From: a virus
Taxonomy: Duplodnaviria > Heunggongvirae > Uroviricota > Caudoviricetes
Virus record (IMG/VR): IMGVR_UViG_2585427751_000007
Location: 1-6,291 of that record
Length of the DNA stretch: 6,291 nucleotides
Reading direction: 5' to 3' (one strand)
Part shown: positions 1 to 6,291 of the stretch, one piece after another
Layout: every line of letters starts with the position of its first letter
Position numbering within the stretch: position 1 is the first letter of the stretch
Position numbers and translations under genes: made by a program
The notes under the pieces: generated by a model
The model's database searches: none
Seen by the model: the letters and a program-made list of their open reading frames with translations, nothing else
What the model was told of the DNA's origin: nothing

Positions 1-267
1 ATGAGGGTATCCAGACAAGCATCGAATAATTTGTTTGTTCGAGAGGGGTGTGACTGGTCTGCTAAAGCGGTATATGCAGCCCTTGAAAACAAAGGCACAG
101 ACCTCCCTGAACTGGAAAGGGAGTTAGGATTAAAAAGCGGATCAATGCGCAATGTGTTTTACCGCCAGTGCCGTAAATACGAAGCCGCCATCGCCGAAAA
201 AATAGGGGTTGAACCTGCTGTAATCTGGCCCAGCAGATACCAGGTGGACGCCAGAGAAGTGGCTTGA
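1..267 (+). CDS. ner: Ner-like DNA-binding transcriptional regulator (Mu Ner / E. coli Nlp family)
   Basis: 88-aa ORF. The C-terminal motif ...GVEPAVIWPSRYQ and the preceding DW...helix-turn-helix-like segment match phage Mu Ner and E. coli Nlp as recalled from memory. It sits directly upstream of a MuA-like transposase gene, as in the Mu early operon. The ATG is at the window edge and the ORF has a ~10 aa N-terminal extension relative to Mu Ner, so the true start is uncertain. Confidence 0.8.
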   Translation: MRVSRQASNNLFVREGCDWSAKAVYAALENKGTDLPELERELGLKSGSMRNVFYRQCRKYEAAIAEKIGVEPAVIWPSRYQVDAREVA

Positions 268-277
268 TGGGGGATGT

Positions 278-1408
278 ATGTGGGTAACAGCAAAAGAATG
301 TGTTGGTCTTCCTGATTTACCAATGATGGAACATAACATTCGCCATCGACTCACAAAAGCAGCTGCGGGAAATGCAGCCATGTTACGCAAACGTAAGGGG
401 ACAAAAGCAATCGAATTTAATATCGATTGTTTGCCTTCTGGCGCGCAACAAGTATTGCGTGAACGTTATGCCCTTCAACTGATGACGCAAAAAGCTGATG
501 AATCACCGGCTCCGGTGGTGACAAAGGCCAGACGCTCATCTGCCGTGGTTGATGCGGTGGAGGCATATCGCGGATCACCACAACTGATGCTCGAACGCCT
601 CAATGCCCTGACTGAAAACCAGCGCCAGGTGGCTGATGCACGAATCGCGATCGTCAGCGAAGTTCTGAAAGTCGCGCAACAACCTGGTTTCAGCTGTGCG
701 AAGGCTATCCGGTTTATCGTTGACAACCTGGCACGTTCGCAACTGGACGAGCGCATTGTGGCAATGGTTGAGACGGCGAACGCCAAAAAGGGAAACAGCC
801 GTGCGTTGAGTGAAATCACGCTGAAACGCTGGATTGCGGCCTTTAACAAGGCACAGAACGCCGCTGAACGCCTGCTTTTACTGGCACCGGGTAAACGCCA
901 GGAAATAAAAGCCGAAGATATTAACTGGCTGCCCGAATTTCTGGCGCAGTATCGCCAGTCAAACGGCCGACCAATGACCGAGGCTTACGAGGATTTTGTT
1001 GCTGAATGGCAGCACCGGCACGCTGATGAGCCTTATATGCTCGATATCATGCCCTCTTATGACACCATTCGCCGCGCAATGAAGAAACTGCCGGAAGTGG
1101 TGAAACAAAAAGGCCGGGTAACTGGCAGTGAATACCGTCAGCTTGAGGGATTCACGCGCCGCGACTGGTCCAGAATGCCGGTGAATTATGTCTGGATTGG
1201 TGACGGTCACGGCATGAAGCTGAAATGCGCGCACCCGGTTCACGGGCGGCCATTCGCACCGGAAGTGACCTTTGTTATCGACGGTGGCACGCGCTTTGTG
1301 GTGGGCTGGAGCCTTGATCTGGCTGAAAATGTTTTCGCTGTAGCCGGTGCCATACAGCACGGCATTCGCCATCACGGCAAACCGTTTCTGTATTACTCGG
1401 ATACCGGG
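278..1408 (+). other. MuA-like transposase portion of the chimeric ORF (enhancer/end-binding region and partial RNase-H-like DDE core; catalytically incomplete)
   Basis: Residues 1-~377 of the 533-aa ORF align by eye with the MuA N-terminal half, including two of the three DDE residues. The third acidic residue and the C-terminal domain are absent. Confidence 0.65.
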
Positions 1409-1879
1409 ATCAAAACCCGTGCGGATGCGCACGACACCCTGAAAACGCAGGTTGCCAGCCTGTCGGCAGAACTGGAAACCGCAAAAGGCACACCAACTGG
1501 CGGCACTATTGATCTGACGAAATATGTGCCCGTTGAGACGTATAACACCCTGCGTACCGAATATGCCGCGCTGTCGGCACAACACGGCAGCACCACGCTG
1601 GAGCAGTTGCTGGATAAGGCCGAGTCCGAAGGACGCATTTTCAAAAGCGAACGCGGATACATGGAAGGACTCGGACAACAGATTGGCGTCGCGGCACTTT
1701 CTGCACAGCTTGACGCCCGCCAGCCGGTTGCGGCTCTGACCACTCTTCAGACCGACACCGTAACCGTGCCGGATAAAAAGACCGCCACCGCTGTGCTGTC
1801 GGCTGAAGATATCGCCGCCGCACGTCTGTTGGGTAAAACCGAAGCCGAGTTCCTGAAAATGAAAGAGGAAATGCAATAA
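278..1879 (+). CDS. Chimeric ORF: truncated MuA-family transposase (N-terminal DNA-binding domains plus DDE core through the second Asp) fused in frame to a phage scaffold-like C-terminal domain (gpI/gpZ-like)
   Basis: The N-terminus MWVTAKECVGLPDLP...KGTKAIEFN resembles the MuA N-terminus (ELWVSPKECANLPGLP...KGGKAIEYN, from memory). The catalytic-core motifs are VWIGDGHG (Asp codon 309, nt 1202-1204) and LYYSDTG (Asp codon 375, nt 1400-1402), a spacing of 66 residues against 67 for MuA D269-D336. After that there is no MuA-like segment and no Glu in a MuA-like context. The last ~150 aa are Ala/Leu/Glu/Thr-rich and coiled-coil-like, ending ...LSAEDIAAARLLGKTEAEFLKMKEEMQ, and the stop TAA overlaps the ATG of the major head gene (TAATG at 1877-1881). 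A GGGGGA Shine-Dalgarno-like sequence lies 3 nt upstream of the start. Confidence 0.7.
   Translation: MWVTAKECVGLPDLPMMEHNIRHRLTKAAAGNAAMLRKRKGTKAIEFNIDCLPSGAQQVLRERYALQLMTQKADESPAPVVTKARRSSAVVDAVEAYRGSPQLMLERLNALTENQRQVADARIAIVSEVLKVAQQPGFSCAKAIRFIVDNLARSQLDERIVAMVETANAKKGNSRALSEITLKRWIAAFNKAQNAAERLLLLAPGKRQEIKAEDINWLPEFLAQYRQSNGRPMTEAYEDFVAEWQHRHADEPYMLDIMPSYDTIRRAMKKLPEVVKQKGRVTGSEYRQLEGFTRRDWSRMPVNYVWIGDGHGMKLKCAHPVHGRPFAPEVTFVIDGGTRFVVGWSLDLAENVFAVAGAIQHGIRHHGKPFLYYSDTGIKTRADAHDTLKTQVASLSAELETAKGTPTGGTIDLTKYVPVETYNTLRTEYAALSAQHGSTTLEQLLDKAESEGRIFKSERGYMEGLGQQIGVAALSAQLDARQPVAALTTLQTDTVTVPDKKTATAVLSAEDIAAARLLGKTEAEFLKMKEEMQ
1409..1879 (+). other. Scaffold-like C-terminal domain (Mu gpI C-terminus / gpZ-like) of the chimeric ORF
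   Basis: Low-complexity, Ala/Glu/Leu-rich sequence with predicted coiled-coil character and an acidic C-terminus, placed immediately before the major head gene with stop/start overlap. This arrangement is typical of scaffold/protease genes in Mu-like phages. Boundary is approximate (within about 20 nt). Confidence 0.55.
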
Positions 1880-2826
1880 TGCCTACCCCGATTACACCGG
1901 CGATGATCACCGCCCTGATGACGGGCTACCGTTCTGATTTTCAGGCCGGGATGTCCATGGCTCCGTCGCAGTACCAGAAAATTGCGATGACCGTGCCGTC
2001 CACCTCGAAATCCAACACCTACGGCTGGCTGGGGCAGTTCCCGCAGTTCCGTGAGTGGATCGGCTCCCGCGTCATCGAGAAGATGAAAGCCTATGGCTAC
2101 GCCATCGTGAACAAAACCTTTGAAGGCACCGTTGCCATTAGCCGCGATGACTTTGAAGACGACAATCTCGGCATCTACTCCCCGTTATTCCAGGAAATGG
2201 GTCGTGCCGCTGCGGCACAACCGGATGAACTGGTCTTTGCTGCACTGCGTGATGGTCTGAATGCGGCCTGCTATGACGGCCAGAACTTCTTTGATACCGA
2301 ACACCCTGTTTACCCCAAAGTGGATGGCTCCGGTGATGCACAGATGGTCAGCAATATGTTTGTGGCAAAAACCGGCTCTGTCGGTGCACAGGCGGATTAC
2401 AGCGGCCCGGCCTGGTATCTGCTTGACTGCTCCCGCGCGGTAAAACCGCTGATTTATCAGGATCGCCGCAAAGCCGAACTGGTTGCCCAGACAAAAGTCG
2501 ATGAAGGCCGTGCGTTTACTGATAACGAGTTTGTGTTCGGTGCTTCCGCCCGTCGCAATGTGGGCTACGGCTTCTGGCAGATGGCCTACATGATGCAGTC
2601 ACCGCTGACGCTGGATGCGCTGTGGCACGGCTGGTCAGCCATGCGTGACTTTAAGGCTGACGGTGGCCGCAAACTCGGCATCAAACCCACCCATATTGTT
2701 GTCCCCACCTCGCTGGAAAAACAGGCGGTGCAGCTGCTGGAGCGCGAGCTGTTCGCAGACGGTAACGCCACAGTCTCTAACGAGATGAAGGGCAAGCTGG
2801 AGCTGGTTGTCGCGGATTATCTGTAA
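1879..2826 (+). CDS. T: Major head (capsid) subunit, Mu gpT-like
   Basis: 315-aa ORF of the right size and position, with an N-terminus (MPTPITPAMITALMTGYRSDFQAGM...) of the kind I associate with Mu-like gpT proteins. AGAGGA Shine-Dalgarno-like sequence at 1864-1869, 9 nt upstream of the ATG. Overlaps the upstream stop. Confidence 0.85.
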   Translation: MPTPITPAMITALMTGYRSDFQAGMSMAPSQYQKIAMTVPSTSKSNTYGWLGQFPQFREWIGSRVIEKMKAYGYAIVNKTFEGTVAISRDDFEDDNLGIYSPLFQEMGRAAAAQPDELVFAALRDGLNAACYDGQNFFDTEHPVYPKVDGSGDAQMVSNMFVAKTGSVGAQADYSGPAWYLLDCSRAVKPLIYQDRRKAELVAQTKVDEGRAFTDNEFVFGASARRNVGYGFWQMAYMMQSPLTLDALWHGWSAMRDFKADGGRKLGIKPTHIVVPTSLEKQAVQLLERELFADGNATVSNEMKGKLELVVADYL

Positions 2827-2833
2827 ACGGTGA

Positions 2834-2852
2834 GCCGGGCTTACGGCCCGGC
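2834..2852 (+). terminator. GC-rich stem-loop just downstream of the major head gene (7-bp stem GCCGGGC/GCCCGGC, 5-nt loop); possible attenuator or mRNA-stabilising hairpin
   Basis: The inverted repeat at 2834-2840 and 2846-2852 is seen directly in the sequence. No U-tract follows, so it is not a canonical intrinsic terminator. Confidence 0.3.
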
Positions 2853-2869
2853 CCCTGCGGAGGGCAAAT

Positions 2870-3229
2870 ATGAATGAACATCACACTGTGGCAGCAACAG
2901 ATGATTCAGGCCTTCAGGTCAGTGGTGACAGTCCTGTCACGGTACTGGCAGAAGTGCGTTGCAGTCGTACGCATTTTCGTCGTGCGGGGTTCCTGTTCAT
3001 GCGGGGACGCCAGCAGGTTGACGTCACCCCGGAGCAGCTTGCCCGACTGGAAGCGGAGCCATGCCTCACTGTACGAATACTACAGACGCCTGGTGATGAT
3101 GCGGGAGCCGTGGCGGGTGTGGTTCATGCAGAGACCGGTGCAGATTTAGCCGAAGCCGAAACCGTACAGGATGCTCCCCGGAAAAAGACCGGCAATAACG
3201 CCAGACAGGCGAAAAAGGCGCGCGCATGA
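2870..3229 (+). CDS. Small hypothetical protein in the gp35 position of Mu-like late operons (between major head and gp36-like genes)
   Basis: 119-aa ORF with a GGAGGG Shine-Dalgarno-like sequence at 2859-2864, 5 nt upstream of the ATG. Its stop overlaps the next start (ATGA at 3226-3229), indicating translational coupling. Strongly basic C-terminal tail (RKKTGNNARQAKKARA). Function not recognised. Confidence 0.6.
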   Translation: MNEHHTVAATDDSGLQVSGDSPVTVLAEVRCSRTHFRRAGFLFMRGRQQVDVTPEQLARLEAEPCLTVRILQTPGDDAGAVAGVVHAETGADLAEAETVQDAPRKKTGNNARQAKKARA

Positions 3230-3645
3230 ATTACGCCACCGAAACCGATATGCGGGCACGTTACCGCGAGGATTTGCTCAGGCCATTACTGGCCGTGCCC
3301 CGTTCGGATGAACCGGACACGCGCAAGCTGAACCGGGCACTGACGGACGCGTCTGCCCTTATCGACAGCTATCTGTCTTCCCGTTACACGCTGCCGCTGG
3401 CGGTGGTTCCGGCGGTCCTTGTTCAGCATTGCTGCACGATTGCCTTTTATTACCTGTGCGATCAGCGGGCATCCGATCAGGCGCGTGACCGTTACCGTGA
3501 GGCGCTGGCCTGGCTGAAAGATGTCATGAACGGTAACGTGCCGGTCGGCGTGGATACAGACGGTGCGGCCCCTGAATCCGGGGATTTACCGCAGGTGCAG
3601 TCTGATGCGGCGGTGTTCGGGCGCAACCAGAAGGGCTTTATATGA
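3226..3645 (+). CDS. Mu gp36-like head-tail joining/neck protein (DUF1320 family)
   Basis: 139-aa ORF. The segment ...ALTDASALIDSYLSSRYTLPLAVVPAVLVQHCCTIAFYYLCD...YREALAWLKDV... matches the conserved pattern of the DUF1320 / Mu gp36 family as recalled. Correct size and position. ATGA overlap with the next gene. Confidence 0.8.
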   Translation: MNYATETDMRARYREDLLRPLLAVPRSDEPDTRKLNRALTDASALIDSYLSSRYTLPLAVVPAVLVQHCCTIAFYYLCDQRASDQARDRYREALAWLKDVMNGNVPVGVDTDGAAPESGDLPQVQSDAAVFGRNQKGFI

Positions 3646-4205
3646 TTACGGAAACCGAGCAGGCGTACATCGCCCGTATCCGTGAGTATTTCGGGAATGA
3701 ACTGGTGTCTGTTGACACACATCCCGGCGACTGGAGCGACAGCGTACTGCGCACCATGCTGATTAACGCCCCGGCTATCTATGTTGCCTGGCTGGGTGCC
3801 GGTGAAGGGCGTACCCGTGGGCGTCTGGTCAGTCACTGGGTGTTCTACGTCATCGGCGACATGCTCAATGGCCGTGAGGTCAGCCGTCCCGGGCTTTATC
3901 AGATTGTGGCCCGCCTGATTACCGTGCTGGACGGCTTCAGAGCAGAAAAAACCTCACCGCTTTACTTTGAAAAGGCGGTCAACGGTTACACCGAAACGCA
4001 GGCAGGCAGCGGTGCCGTGATGTACGCCCTGTATTTCTCATGCGAGGAAATGATCGACCCGCTGACGGATATCAGCTCGCTGGATGATTTCCTGCGCCAT
4101 TACGAAACCTTTACCGAACCGGAAGGCACGCCGGAATTTAAGGCACACATCCGTCTGCCTGGTGCAACTGCCGCCGGTGAAAACGCCGGACTGTCAGAGG
4201 AATAA
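3642..4205 (+). CDS. Mu gp37-like virion protein (DUF1834 family)
   Basis: 187-aa ORF of the right size and position for the gp37-like family. AAGGG Shine-Dalgarno-like sequence 6 nt upstream of the ATG. Start overlaps the upstream stop. Confidence 0.75.
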   Translation: MITETEQAYIARIREYFGNELVSVDTHPGDWSDSVLRTMLINAPAIYVAWLGAGEGRTRGRLVSHWVFYVIGDMLNGREVSRPGLYQIVARLITVLDGFRAEKTSPLYFEKAVNGYTETQAGSGAVMYALYFSCEEMIDPLTDISSLDDFLRHYETFTEPEGTPEFKAHIRLPGATAAGENAGLSEE

Positions 4206-4208
4206 CAG

Positions 4209-4487
4209 ATGACAACCATTTTTATTAAACCTGCGCCGGGATGCCTGATCCGCGATCCCGACACGATGACTCCGCTCTCTCAGGACGGGGAAGAGAAACC
4301 CTTCACTCCGTTCTGGTGCCGCCGTCTTAATGATGGCGACGTCATTGTGGTGGATAAAACGGCGGAGCCTGCCCCGGCTGCCACAACTGCTAATACCGGC
4401 GCGGCGGCAAAACCAGCGGGAGCGGTAGCAGAAAAAACTGCGGCGGTGGCTGAAAAAACCGCAGCATCAGATAAGGGGACGTCCTGA
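4209..4487 (+). CDS. Mu gp38-like small protein (DUF2635 family) with an Ala-rich repetitive C-terminal tail
   Basis: 92-aa ORF. The N-terminus MTTIFIKPAPGCLIRDPDTMTPL...FWCRRLNDGDVIVV matches the gp38-like pattern as recalled. AGAGGAA Shine-Dalgarno-like sequence at 4196-4202. Its stop overlaps the sheath start (TGATG at 4485-4489). Confidence 0.75.
   Translation: MTTIFIKPAPGCLIRDPDTMTPLSQDGEEKPFTPFWCRRLNDGDVIVVDKTAEPAPAATTANTGAAAKPAGAVAEKTAAVAEKTAASDKGTS
4422..4463 (+). repeat. Imperfect 21-bp tandem duplication (gcggtagcagaaaaaactgcg / gcggtggctgaaaaaaccgca) encoding AVAEKTA-AVAEKTA
   Basis: Direct tandem repeat seen in the sequence inside the C-terminal tail of the gp38-like ORF. Confidence 0.5.
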
Positions 4488-6058
4488 TGATTAACTTTGA
4501 TTATATCGGCGATAACAATCGCATTCCGCTGGTACAGATTGAAATCAATAATTCAATGGCCGTGACCGGCACTCCACCACAGCGTCAGGCGGTACTGTTG
4601 TTTGGTCAGGCTGCAATGAAAGACACTACCATTCAGGGGCGCGGTCAGCTTGATGTACCAGTACGTATTACCCGAGCTTCACAAGCAAGAGAACTCTGGG
4701 GGCGAGGTTCCATGATTGCACTGATGGTAGAGGAATTTATCGCCATTAACCCTGACACAGAGTTATATGCCATTGCACAGGGGGCTGGAACAGGTCAGTC
4801 CAGGGCATGCGTGATGAATATCATTGGAACAGCATTGGCAGACGGGGTGTTAAGTGTTTACATCGGCGGTCGCCGTTACCTCCTGCCCGTCAGTAAGGGG
4901 AAAAAAGGTAAAGAGCTTGTGGAAGAGCTGGCTAAGGTCATTAACGCTGACACTGATGCGCCATTCACTGCTATCGCAGCTGAAGTCAGTGGTGATAATG
5001 CTGAAGGACTTAAAGGCAGCATGGGGGTTAACGCCCGCTTTATCGGTGAATGCTCAGCTCATGATTTACGGGTGAACTATTATGACGGTGAAACTACACC
5101 GGCCGGTCTTACGCTGGAGCTCGTCGCGCCAACACAGAAGGCAACAAACCCCGATATCACCCGTAGCGTCTCAGGGATGGGGAATCGTCAGTACAACTAC
5201 ATCGTCATGCCCTATAAGGATGCGGCAAATCTCAAAATTCTGGCGGATGAACTGCTGAAACGCTGGGGACCGGTAAAAATGTCGGACGGTATGGTCTGGA
5301 TGGCGCATACCGGCACCTTCGGTACGGCAACCAGTTTTGGTGAATCCCGTAATGACTTCCTGTTTACCTGCACTTCTATTCCTAAAGCACCAGAGCCGGA
5401 TTATGTCTGGGCGGCCTCCATTTGTGCGGTCTGTGCGCCCTCCCTGTCAACGGATCCGGCCCGACCATTACAGACACTGGCGCTGCCTGCCCGTATGGCA
5501 CCTGAAGCACCGGCTCGTCTGACGCGGGAAGAGCGAAACAGCCTGCTTTATACCGGCATGTCCACGGTGACCGTTGCGGCCGCTGATGTGGTGCAGATTG
5601 AACGTCAGGTGACGATGTACCGTCAGAATGCATACGGCGAAAGCGATCCCAGCTATCTGGATGTAGAAACCATCTACACCCTGTCATATCTGCGTTATTC
5701 CCTGCGCACCTTTATCACGCAGCGTTTCCCGCGCCACAAACTGGCCGATAACGGTACTCCCGTCCGGCCCGGTCAGAATATCGTGACGCCGGAGATTATG
5801 ACGCTCCAGCTGATTGCACTGGGGGAAGAATGGGTGGAACTCGGGCTGGTCGAAAATCTGGACACCTTTAAAAAGAATCTGCTCGTGGAGCGCAACACAA
5901 AAGACCGTAACCGTCTGGATGTGATGTGTACACCGGATCTGCACGGCAGCGTGCCCTGCGTGAAATGCGCCGTGCGATTGCCCGTTCAGAACGGTTTTCT
6001 GCCACCGTGCGTGGCTGGTTCCGGGATGATGGCCGGTTATGGGATGTCAATCTGCTGA
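4487..6058 (+). CDS. L: Contractile tail sheath protein (Mu gpL-like); the C-terminal ~38 codons look like out-of-frame read-through into a neighbouring gene fragment
   Basis: 523-aa ORF of sheath size and position, sheath-like through ...NLLVERNTKDRNRLDVMCTPDL. AAGGGGA Shine-Dalgarno-like sequence at 4473-4479. The final segment HGSVPCVKCAVRLPVQNGFLPPCVAGSGMMAGYGMSIC is Cys/Pro/Gly-rich and atypical, while the -1 frame over the same DNA gives a well-formed protein sequence. Confidence 0.8.
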   Translation: MINFDYIGDNNRIPLVQIEINNSMAVTGTPPQRQAVLLFGQAAMKDTTIQGRGQLDVPVRITRASQARELWGRGSMIALMVEEFIAINPDTELYAIAQGAGTGQSRACVMNIIGTALADGVLSVYIGGRRYLLPVSKGKKGKELVEELAKVINADTDAPFTAIAAEVSGDNAEGLKGSMGVNARFIGECSAHDLRVNYYDGETTPAGLTLELVAPTQKATNPDITRSVSGMGNRQYNYIVMPYKDAANLKILADELLKRWGPVKMSDGMVWMAHTGTFGTATSFGESRNDFLFTCTSIPKAPEPDYVWAASICAVCAPSLSTDPARPLQTLALPARMAPEAPARLTREERNSLLYTGMSTVTVAAADVVQIERQVTMYRQNAYGESDPSYLDVETIYTLSYLRYSLRTFITQRFPRHKLADNGTPVRPGQNIVTPEIMTLQLIALGEEWVELGLVENLDTFKKNLLVERNTKDRNRLDVMCTPDLHGSVPCVKCAVRLPVQNGFLPPCVAGSGMMAGYGMSIC

Positions 6059-6291
6059 CCGGTGTTTCAGCCCTGCGTTTCGGTATAGAACAGACTGAAC
6101 TGCTGGTCTGTCAGGTGGAGTTTTTACTTGATGAGCATAACGGGGAAGTCACCCGGCTGGTACTGGCACCGCGTGACGGCTTTATCGTTCCGGCAGAGCC
6201 GGACAGTAAGGGCCGGGGTGGTTCCGGTGACGATGTTGATGCCTTTATTCGCCAGCAGATGAAAAAACAGGGGATCAGCTTTGATGAATGA
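5926..6291 (+). pseudogene. C-terminal fragment (~115 aa) of a baseplate hub protein of the gpD family (P2 gpD / Mu gpP-like), lacking its N-terminal ~2/3 and its own start
   Basis: The frame is open from nt 5911, with the first GTG at 5926 and an ATG at 5965. The translation ...RRAIARSERFSATVRGW...VNLLTGVSALRFGIEQTELLVCQVEFLLDEHNGEVTRLVLAP... resembles the C-terminal region of P2 gpD-like hub proteins as recalled from memory. It overlaps the sheath ORF by ~130 nt in the -1 frame and has no Shine-Dalgarno sequence. Family assignment is tentative. Confidence 0.45.

What the first reader, a model, noticed from the sequence alone, without database searches (positions are those of the whole stretch)
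278..1879. In-frame chimera of a truncated MuA-like transposase and a scaffold-like domain, marking a large internal deletion
The ORF matches MuA from its first residues through the two catalytic Asp motifs (VWIGDGHG and LYYSDTG, 66 residues apart). At about nt 1405-1425 it switches to coiled-coil-like, Ala-rich sequence that ends with a stop overlapping the start of the major head gene, the normal context of the gpI/gpZ scaffold C-terminus. In a canonical Mu-like genome these two segments are separated by B, the semi-essential early region, the late activator, lysis genes, terminase, portal, F, G and the protease part of I. The simplest reading is a single deletion of roughly 15-20 kb (by analogy to Mu) that happened to fuse the two genes in frame.
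Basis: partly seen in the sequence, partly recalled or inferred. Interest (0 to 1): 0.7.

Follow-up and report, generated by a model that had tools for sequence, protein, structure and literature searches.

The report
Deletion-scar fusion gene in decayed Mu-like prophage
The 533-residue ORF is a real in-frame fusion of the front of a Mu-type transposase gene to the tail of the head protease/scaffold gene, left by a ~16.5-16.9 kb deletion in a decaying E. coli prophage. That is ordinary, except that at least four other independent prophage remnants broke the transposase gene at the same few nucleotides.

Summary
ORF 278-1879 (533 aa) consists of residues 1-375 of a Mu-like transposase joined in frame to residues 217-375 of the gpI-like protease/scaffold protein.

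**Origin.** Two intact E. coli Mu-like prophages (L013, L001) match both sides at 98.6-99.7% identity. They place the junction at nt 1402-1404, with a shared "TA". The deletion is 16,926 bp measured against L013 and 16,541 bp against L001. It removes the rest of A, then B, the early region, Mor, lysis, terminase, portal, F, G and the protease part of I.

**Likely function.** The fusion lacks the catalytic Glu, the transposase C-terminal domain, the protease part and the nested scaffold start. It is most likely an inert scar.

**Surroundings.** The window is a mosaic, multiply deleted remnant in E. coli 4-203-08_S3_C1. A second deletion lies at nt 5940-5941 (sheath::gpP, out of frame). A third lies just past the window end, at the core of the invertase site gixL.

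**Unexpected result.** The same transposase breakpoint (...TCGGATA|) recurs in four other independent fusions with different partners: Mor, DUF6645, baseplate J and sheath. These come from E. coli, Salmonella and a lineage only 44% identical. None of 277 copies in complete E. coli genomes is broken there. The cause of this hot spot is unknown.

The parts
1..267 (+). ner-like early regulator gene (88 aa), intact
   Evidence: Pfam HTH_35 E 1.7e-20 and phrog_769. Same length as the annotated gene in L013.
278..1403 (+). 5' part of the Mu-like transposase gene A (residues 1-375). It holds the DNA-binding domains and the first two catalytic Asp (D309, D375). The catalytic Glu and the C-terminal domain are missing.
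   Evidence: 98.7% identical to L013 21125-22531. phrog_310 positions 8-354 of 696. RSV integrase alignment.
1399..1404 (+). Deletion junction 1. GGATA (1399-1403) comes from A, C1404 onward from I, and TA (1402-1403) is shared by both parents. It coincides with the recurrent breakpoint.
   Evidence: Three-way alignments. Sequence read. Other fusions at the same site.
1404..1879 (+). 3' part of the gpI-like protease/scaffold gene (I residues 217-375, 158 aa). It is in frame with A'. The stop overlaps the T start.
   Evidence: Pfam Mu-like_Pro 198-330 of 330. Equals L001 20003-20478 at 99.7%. The nested scaffold start Met183 is deleted.
1879..2826 (+). Major head subunit gpT gene, intact (315 aa)
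   Evidence: Pfam Mu-like_gpT E 3.7e-119. Same length as in L001.
2870..4487 (+). Four intact late genes: FluMu_N/HI1506-like (2870-3229), gp36 (3226-3645), gp37/DUF1834 (3642-4205), DUF2635 (4209-4487)
   Evidence: Pfam and PHROG hits. Collinear with L001 21469-23086.
4487..6058 (+). Truncated tail sheath gene: 485 native residues followed by 38 out-of-frame residues read from gpP DNA (native length 500 aa)
   Evidence: phrog_165 1-488. Comparison with the 500-aa P0014.
5940..5942 (+). Deletion junction 2 (sheath::gpP). About 5.2 kb is missing: tube, assembly protein, tape measure, DNA circularization protein and the 5' part of gpP. 'TG' microhomology; out of frame.
   Evidence: Shared with the malX-inserted remnant family L003-L012.
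5942..6291 (+). 3' fragment of the baseplate gene gpP (about residues 259-374 of 374, fourth domain)
   Evidence: Pfam GpP_4th. Equals L001 29746-30096 at 98.9%.

Best explanation
**What it is.** The ORF is a deletion scar in a decaying Mu-like prophage of E. coli 4-203-08_S3_C1. The prophage's left end lies 282 bp downstream of nlpE.

**How it arose.** One illegitimate joining event removed about 16.5-16.9 kb. It linked codon 375/376 of the transposase gene A to codon 217 of the head protease/scaffold gene I through a 2-bp 'TA' microhomology, and the two genes happened to be in frame.

**What the product lacks.** It keeps the transposase DNA-binding domains and two of the three catalytic residues. 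It lacks:
- the catalytic Glu;
- the C-terminal Mu-transposase domain;
- the protease part of I;
- the first 34 residues of the nested scaffold protein.

It therefore cannot transpose DNA, process heads or (inferred) scaffold them.

**Expression (inferred).** It sits in the early operon behind ner, under an intact divergent c-type repressor gene. Expression is probably only what escapes repression.

**Rest of the element.** It carries at least two further deletions (sheath::gpP, and gpP/V::tail fibre at gixL). It is a mosaic of three phage lineages, so it cannot form particles.

**Shown:** the structure, the parents, the junctions and the loss of catalytic parts.

**Inferred:** the joining mechanism. 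I propose a break or a stalled 3' end right after GGATA, joined by microhomology. The lack of function is also an inference.

**The breakpoint recurs.** The break site in A recurs in independent remnants, so the break itself is probably site-specific. Its cause is unknown.
For: - Two-domain composition.
- Collinearity with intact prophages on both sides at 98.6-99.7% identity, with 16,541 bp or 16,926 bp missing.
- Gene content of the missing segment.
- Junction with only 'TA' shared.
- The catalytic Glu lies downstream of the junction.
- The nested scaffold start is deleted.
- No full-length homologue; the highest coverage is 81%.
- The exact protein occurs only in 2 contigs / 3 samples of one strain set.
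- 0 of 277 copies in complete E. coli genomes carry the junction.
- Further deletions and mosaicism.
- Recurrence of the breakpoint.
Against: - No reads were available, so coverage across nt 1350-1500 was not checked.
- Nothing was measured about expression or activity.
- An in-frame fusion that keeps the DNA-binding domains could in principle act as an inhibitor of related transposases.
- The recurrent breakpoint shows that 'random illegitimate deletion' is not the whole story.
Confidence: 0.93

Rival explanations
1. The fixed endpoint is made by the phage's own transposase. It would nick or use a pseudo right end inside its own gene (...CGGATA-3') together with the true left end. This would give adjacent deletions that run from that point into downstream phage DNA. 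Survivors would be selected because killing and lysis genes are lost.
For: - The left endpoint is fixed while the right endpoints vary, and all deletions run rightward, keeping attL-c-ner-A'.
- The natural right end of this phage family ends ...GCGCTATA-3' (TA, not CA), as the hot spot does.
- From memory, unverified: one-ended mini-Mu elements have been reported to use pseudo-ends (Groenen et al. 1986).
Against: - The 45 nt inside the hot spot show no significant similarity to the true ends or to their TTTGATACCGA transposase-site repeats (z 0.55-0.68, against 5.3 for left end versus right end).
- All three exactly defined right-hand parents carry 'TA' at the joint. Chance would give this about 1 in 4096 times if strand transfer needed no homology. 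That points to annealing rather than transposase strand transfer.
- From prior knowledge, not checked here: Mu genomes are normally immune to self-integration.
Confidence: 0.15
2. The fusion is retained because it is useful. A catalytically dead transposase that still binds phage ends and operators could block transposition of incoming related Mu-like phages (dominant-negative superinfection interference). The recurrent breakpoint would then reflect selection for this particular truncation.
For: - The DNA-binding N-terminal part is intact.
- All five fusions at this site are in frame.
- The repressor and ner genes are kept in the window's element, L014 and L189; L018 has a c-like ORF but no called ner.
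Against: - Selection on a protein would not fix the breakpoint to within about 1-4 nucleotides.
- The C-terminal partners are unrelated proteins.
- The in-frame bias is expected from how the fusions were found. Out-of-frame versions hide inside clusters of partial transposases, as the window protein itself did.
- Each fusion is rare: 0 of 277 copies in complete genomes.
- The window's fusion occurs only in sister isolates.
Confidence: 0.07
3. The junction is an assembly artefact that joins two different Mu-like prophages of the same draft genome.
For: The source is a short-read draft. E. coli strains often carry several Mu-like prophages (up to 4 copies per genome). The contig ends 71 bp after the window, in a repeat.
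Against: - The parents share only 2 bp at the joint, far below any assembler k-mer.
- The identical protein is recorded on 2 contigs / 3 samples.
- Independent data sets from other laboratories show fusions at the same site with other partners.
Confidence: 0.02
4. The phage's Gin-type invertase made the deletion by recombining quasi-gix sites.
For: - The third deletion of the element ends exactly at the core of gixL (TTATCGATAACG|TC|GGTTTACGGGAA). Its partner has a matching half-site, CGGTAACG.
- The hot spot contains GATAACG, the inner 7 bp of that half-site.
Against: At the hot spot the joint lies 3 nt to the left of where a Gin crossover would fall, and the fusions lose 'ACG'. The other half-site is absent, and no register puts a core at the observed 'TA' (my reading of the sequences).
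Confidence: 0.03

Closest known systems
Bacteriophage Mu transposase MuA (DDE transposase; Pfam HTH_Tnp_Mu_1 plus Mu-transpos_C)
   Same: Same N-terminal Mu DNA-binding domain, same position after ner in the early operon, and a D...D spacing of 66 residues. Full-length relatives are 681-697 aa.
   Different: Only residues 1-375 are present. The catalytic Glu and the C-terminal domain are missing. Sequence similarity to Mu's own A is too low for a direct PDB hit from the fusion; a full-length relative gives E 0.02-0.08.
Mu gpI protease with nested in-frame scaffold (gpZ-type); Pfam Mu-like_Pro PF10123
   Same: The C-terminal third of the family profile is present, and the stop overlaps the major head gene start. 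Nested scaffold genes embedded in frame in the protease gene are described for Mu-like phages (PMC2628397).
   Different: The protease two-thirds and the likely scaffold start (Met183) with its first 34 residues are deleted.
Cryptic (defective) prophages of enterobacteria, decayed by internal deletions
   Same: Multiple internal deletions with 2-5 bp microhomology, mosaic ancestry and loss of lytic functions.
   Different: The breakpoint in A is shared to within a few nucleotides by independent remnants at other chromosomal sites and in other species.
The widespread malX-inserted Mu-like remnant of E. coli (loci L003-L012)
   Same: Identical 523-aa sheath::gpP fusion protein and the same gixL-core deletion. 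DNA differs by 2 nt in about 1.8 kb.
   Different: That remnant has a full-length A (694 aa), a different repressor type, B::T and gp36::gp37 deletions, and another insertion site.

Membership tests
Mu-type DDE transposase (functional MuA family member) | N-terminal Mu DNA-binding domain (PF02316) | tested here: met
   26.2 bits against a cut-off of 23.3, residues 6-143
Mu-type DDE transposase (functional MuA family member) | Complete D-D-E catalytic triad | tested here: not met
   D309 and D375 are present. The Glu of GIIERLNR lies downstream of the junction and is deleted.
Mu-type DDE transposase (functional MuA family member) | C-terminal Mu-transpos_C domain (PF09299) | tested here: not met
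   Absent from the fusion; present in full-length relatives.
Mu-like prophage I protease/scaffold (PF10123) | N-terminal protease portion (profile positions 1-197) | tested here: not met
   Only profile positions 198-330 of 330 match. I residues 1-216 are deleted.
Mu-like prophage I protease/scaffold (PF10123) | C-terminal (scaffold) portion ending at the start of the major head gene | tested here: met
   E 4.8e-29. TAATG overlap.
Deletion derivative of a Mu-like prophage | Both flanks collinear with one intact relative, with the intervening genes missing | tested here: met
   L013: 21125-22531 and 39452-42527. L001 likewise.
Deletion derivative of a Mu-like prophage | Physical continuity of the junction in the source DNA (reads or PCR) | not testable with these tools
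   Only assemblies are available. Indirect support comes from 2 contigs / 3 samples.
Transposase pseudo-end (adjacent-deletion) site | Similarity of the sub-terminal 45 nt to true phage ends and transposase-binding repeats | tested here: not met
   z 0.55-0.68, against 5.3 for left end versus right end. Only the terminal TAT is shared.
Gin/Hin-type quasi-site recombination | Crossover at the 2-bp core between two 12-bp half-sites | tested here: not met
   For junction 1 the joint is 3 nt off the only plausible core. For the third deletion, outside the window, the joint is at the gixL core, which is consistent.

The most novel reading that the evidence does not exclude
Mu-like transposase genes may carry a conserved fragile site at the codon of the second catalytic Asp (TCGGATA|ACGG, encoded by YSD-NG). 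A site-specific nick or break, or a replication stop, would occur there. It could be self-inflicted by the phage or imposed by the host. The exposed 3' end would then join by 1-4 bp microhomology to downstream phage DNA. This would repeatedly produce one-sided deletions that disarm the prophage in E. coli, Salmonella and more distant hosts.
Probability: 0.3. Interest if true: 0.65.

Novelty: new member of a known kind. Interest (0 to 1): 0.4.

Why it matters
On its own the fusion is a textbook example of prophage decay. It matters mainly for annotation: RefSeq names the protein 'phage protease', and one GenBank record names it 'mu-like prophage I family protein'.

The recurrent breakpoint is the part worth following. 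Deletions that inactivate prophages are usually taken to have random endpoints. Here five independent fusions with five different partners start at the same few nucleotides of the transposase gene. If that reflects a specific break, it would be a defined, testable route by which transposable prophages are grounded.

Tried and rejected
1. **Collection scans with short patterns.** An exact 34-mer of the junction found nothing in genome contigs. A 17-mer pattern for 'hot spot followed by non-A' in metagenome contigs and genome contigs returned only chance matches. None of loci L020-L156 contains the transposase sequence.

2. **Viral contigs.** Longer patterns found 32 intact copies and no broken one.

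3. **DNA secondary structure.** Structure at the hot spot is not above shuffled controls (z -0.4 to -1.1).

4. **Chi sites.** There are none in the window or in the L001 prophage; L013 was scanned only as a whole locus.

5. **Pseudo-end similarity.** Not significant.

6. **Gin quasi-site register.** It does not fit junction 1.

7. **PDB sequence search.** The fusion gave no hit. The catalytic residues were mapped through a full-length relative instead.

8. **The Salmonella contig ending at ...GGATAA (L019).** I first counted it as a hot-spot case. I then set it aside, because codon 376 is polymorphic (AAC/AAT) and an assembly fork explains the contig end.

10. **Literature search on Mu-like prophage deletions.** It found nothing about a breakpoint hot spot.
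Full report
**1. What is in the window**

The six-frame ORF list shows a compact, same-strand gene series:
- a ner-like gene (1-267);
- the 533-aa ORF (278-1879);
- the major head gene T (1879-2826);
- four small late genes (2870-4487);
- a 523-aa sheath ORF (4487-6058);
- a C-terminal fragment of baseplate gene P (to 6291).

Pfam and PHROGs identify each of them.

For the ORF in question the two halves belong to different families. Residues 1-381 match the transposase family phrog_310 at profile positions 8-354 of 696 (E 3.5e-112). Residues 386-532 match the head maturation protease family phrog_328 at positions 203-338 of 339 (E 2.1e-36). Pfam gives HTH_Tnp_Mu_1 at the N-terminus and Mu-like_Pro positions 198-330 of 330 at the C-terminus.

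**2. Source**

The exact protein is on record only for E. coli 4-203-08_S3_C1 and sister samples. The accessions are KEL13902.1, KEL19885.1 and WP_050496164.1 (2 contigs, 3 samples).

- The window is JOQJ01000001.1, about positions 275,867-282,157.
- The prophage left end (TGTAACCAGG...) lies 282 bp downstream of nlpE.
- A 203-aa c-type repressor gene lies divergently upstream of ner.
- The contig ends 71 bp after the window.

**3. The deletion**

An intact 38-kb Mu-like prophage of E. coli JE86-ST05 (L001) matches three stretches of the window:

| Window | L001 | Identity |
|---|---|---|
| 446-1403 | 2504-3461 | 94.6% |
| 1402-5941 | 20001-24541 | 99.7% |
| 5931-6291 | 29739-30096 | 98.9% |

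A second intact prophage of the same strain (L013) has the window's immunity type. It matches window 1-1407 at 98.7% and window 1402-4480 at 98.6%.

The missing segment is 16,541 bp in L001 and 16,926 bp in L013. In those annotated records it holds the rest of A, B, the early genes, gam, gp16, Mor, lysozyme and lysis genes, both terminase subunits, portal, F, G and the first 216 codons of I.

At the nucleotide level:
- left parent: ...CTCGGATA|ACGGC;
- right parent: ...GCCCTTA|CCGGG;
- window: CTCGGATACCGGG.

GGATA is nt 1399-1403, and only TA (1402-1403) is shared. The reading frames happen to agree, which a random join would do one time in three.

**4. What the fusion can and cannot do**

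The two Asp motifs are at residues 309 and 375. A full-length relative aligns to RSV integrase so that YYSD375NGS is the second catalytic Asp and GIIERLNR carries the catalytic Glu. That Glu and the Mu-transpos_C domain lie in the deleted part.

On the I side the protease two-thirds are gone. In Mu-like phages the scaffold gene is embedded in frame in the 3' part of the protease gene (PMC2628397). In L013 the likely internal start is Met183, with AAGGA 8 nt upstream. The fusion begins at I residue 217.

The product is therefore a DNA-binding transposase stump joined to a headless scaffold tail.

A promoter-like site (TTGATA-17-TATGAT) sits upstream of ner, where the early promoter is expected. 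This is only a consensus match. I infer that the ORF is a pseudogene-like scar. Residual DNA binding is possible but untested.

**5.

- A search of 5.8 billion proteins found no full-length match. The highest coverage is 81%, from full-length and contig-truncated transposases whose local alignment runs a little way into the I part.
- An assembly join is very unlikely, because the parents share only 2 bp and the protein recurs in sister assemblies. Reads could not be inspected.

**6. The rest of the element**

*Second deletion.* It joins sheath codon 485 to gpP residue ~259 at nt 5940-5941 (TG shared, out of frame). It removes about 5.2 kb holding the tube, tape measure and neighbouring genes.

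The resulting 523-aa protein is identical to one found in many E. coli genomes and gut metagenomes (58 index blocks). There it lies in a different remnant, inserted in malX, with a full-length A and other deletions.

From nt ~4500 to the contig end the window differs from that remnant by only 2 nt. Between 3980 and 4500 it differs at 70 positions.

*Third deletion.* Both elements also share a deletion just beyond the window (L001 30130->33292). Its right end is exactly at the core of the invertase site gixL, TTATCGATAACG|TC|GGTTTACGGGAA. Its left parent carries CGGTAACG. That fits a Gin quasi-site event, although 5-bp microhomology alone could also explain it.

The contig stops inside the inverted repeat of the invertible segment.

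The element is thus a mosaic with an L013-like left arm, an L001-like middle and a malX-remnant-like right part. It carries at least three deletions.

**7. The unexpected part: a recurrent breakpoint**

The homologue searches and cluster listings turned up other fusion proteins that break the transposase at the same residue:

| Fusion | Protein junction | Partner | Source and context | DNA junction and right parent |
|---|---|---|---|---|
| P0026 | ...YYSD\|MAETQ | whole Mor | E. coli, next to yedD; 6 contigs, at least 4 separate samples | GGATA\|TGGCTG; parent GCGGGTA\|TGG |
| P0028 | ...YYSD\|NQYAL | C-terminus of DUF6645 | E. coli, other immunity type, next to nemR | GGATAAT\|CAG; parent CGGCTAAT\|CAG |
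| P0397 / P0395 | ...IYYSD\|TRSWC | C-terminus of baseplate J | Salmonella-type A | DNA not obtained |
| P0267 | ...VYSDNG\|LTPFE | C-terminus of tail sheath | metagenome lineage 44% identical to P0027, an E. coli full-length A | TTCGGATAACGG\|ACTG; parent not available |

- With the window, that makes five events. They lie in different lineages. The three E. coli events, whose flanks were read, lie at three different chromosomal sites.
- The four E. coli/Salmonella joints are all compatible with a break right after GGATA.
- The three joints with exact parents all have TA at the joint.
- A further deletion in the yedD remnant also starts after ...CCTGGATA|.
- Other transposase deletions with different breakpoints do exist: P0145, P0274 and P0264. 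The site is therefore preferred, not obligatory.
- It is rare in absolute terms. In 5,426 complete E. coli genomes the 150 nt to the left and to the right of the site each occur 277 times, so none is broken there. The 32 copies in viral contigs are also intact.
- All five fusions are in frame. I attribute that largely to how they were found, since out-of-frame versions would be hidden in clusters of partial transposases.

**8. Why the site breaks**

I tested the obvious ideas.
- DNA hairpins are not above shuffled controls.
- There are no Chi sites in the window or in the L001 prophage.
- The natural right end of this phage family ends ...CTATA-3', like the hot spot. However, the adjacent 45 nt have no significant similarity to either true end or to their TTTGATACCGA repeats.
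- The motif GATAACG equals the inner half of gixL, but the joint is 3 nt away from where a Gin crossover would be.

The consistent terminal microhomology points to annealing of a 3' end that stops at ...GGATA. What creates that end is unknown. Candidates are a nick by the phage's own transposase, a host nuclease or a replication stop. I rate the 'real site-specific break' reading at about 0.3. It is the only part of this finding that goes beyond ordinary prophage decay.

**9. Verdict**

The junction is at nt 1402-1404. The 'LYYSDTG' motif is chimeric. The scaffold part is itself truncated.
- The feature is a new example of a known kind: a deletion-fusion pseudogene in a cryptic Mu-like prophage.
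- The overall interest score of 0.4 rests mainly on the recurrent breakpoint.

Noticed in passing
window 1399-1404; L014 8634-8640; L018 11122-11130; L189 11158-11170; proteins P0397/P0395: At least five independent in-frame fusions break the Mu-like transposase gene at the same site (...TCGGATA|, the codon after the second catalytic Asp). The partners differ: I, Mor, DUF6645, baseplate J and sheath. They come from E. coli, Salmonella and a lineage only 44% identical. The cause is unknown.
   Followed up: partly
window 5940-5942 (ORF 4487-6058): A second deletion junction joins sheath codon 485 out of frame to gpP residue ~259, with about 5.2 kb missing. The identical 523-aa fusion protein is widespread (58 index blocks) in a different Mu-like remnant inserted in malX (L003-L012).
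   Followed up: yes
L002 16048-16049 (34 nt past the window end); L003 11839: A third deletion (L001 30130->33292) ends exactly at the core of the invertase site gixL (TTATCGATAACG|TC|GGTTTACGGGAA). Its partner has a matching half-site, CGGTAACG, which suggests a Gin quasi-site deletion. The source contig then stops inside the invertible-segment inverted repeat.
   Followed up: partly
window 3980-4500 versus 4500-6291: There is a sharp change in relatedness to the malX remnant family: 70 mismatches in about 500 nt, then 2 in about 1,800 nt. The element is a recombinant mosaic with an L013-like left arm, an L001-like middle and a malX-remnant-like right part.
   Followed up: partly
L001 39742-39753, L003 18291-18302, L018 13871-13882 (right ends); L002 8600 (left end): This phage family's right end terminates ...GCGCTATA-3' (TA rather than the canonical CA of Mu). 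L001's left end starts TATAACC instead of TGTAACC. For L001 and L018 the flanks share a 4-bp direct repeat rather than a clean 5-bp one. The malX remnant shows no target duplication.
   Followed up: no
L189 9953-11493: In the distant metagenome scaffold, the transposase::sheath fusion gene is inverted relative to both ner and the tail tube gene. Either a further inversion occurred or the scaffold is wrong. No terminal inverted repeat explains it.
   Followed up: partly
L014 14800-14820: The yedD-adjacent remnant has a second deletion (portal fused to a DNA-circularization-like region, 727-aa ORF). Its left breakpoint also follows ...CCTGGATA|.
   Followed up: no
L001 18574-18653 and L013 38035-38114 (inside the segment deleted from the window): RefSeq annotates a minus-strand 'tRNA-OTHER' between the F-like and G-like genes of the intact prophages. 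This is near where Mu has its strong gyrase site (between G and I, per PMC2628397).
   Followed up: no
protein records for window 278-1876: RefSeq names the fusion (WP_050496164.1) 'phage protease' and one GenBank record (KEL13902.1 or KEL19885.1) names it 'mu-like prophage I family protein'. Neither name mentions the larger transposase part.
   Followed up: yes
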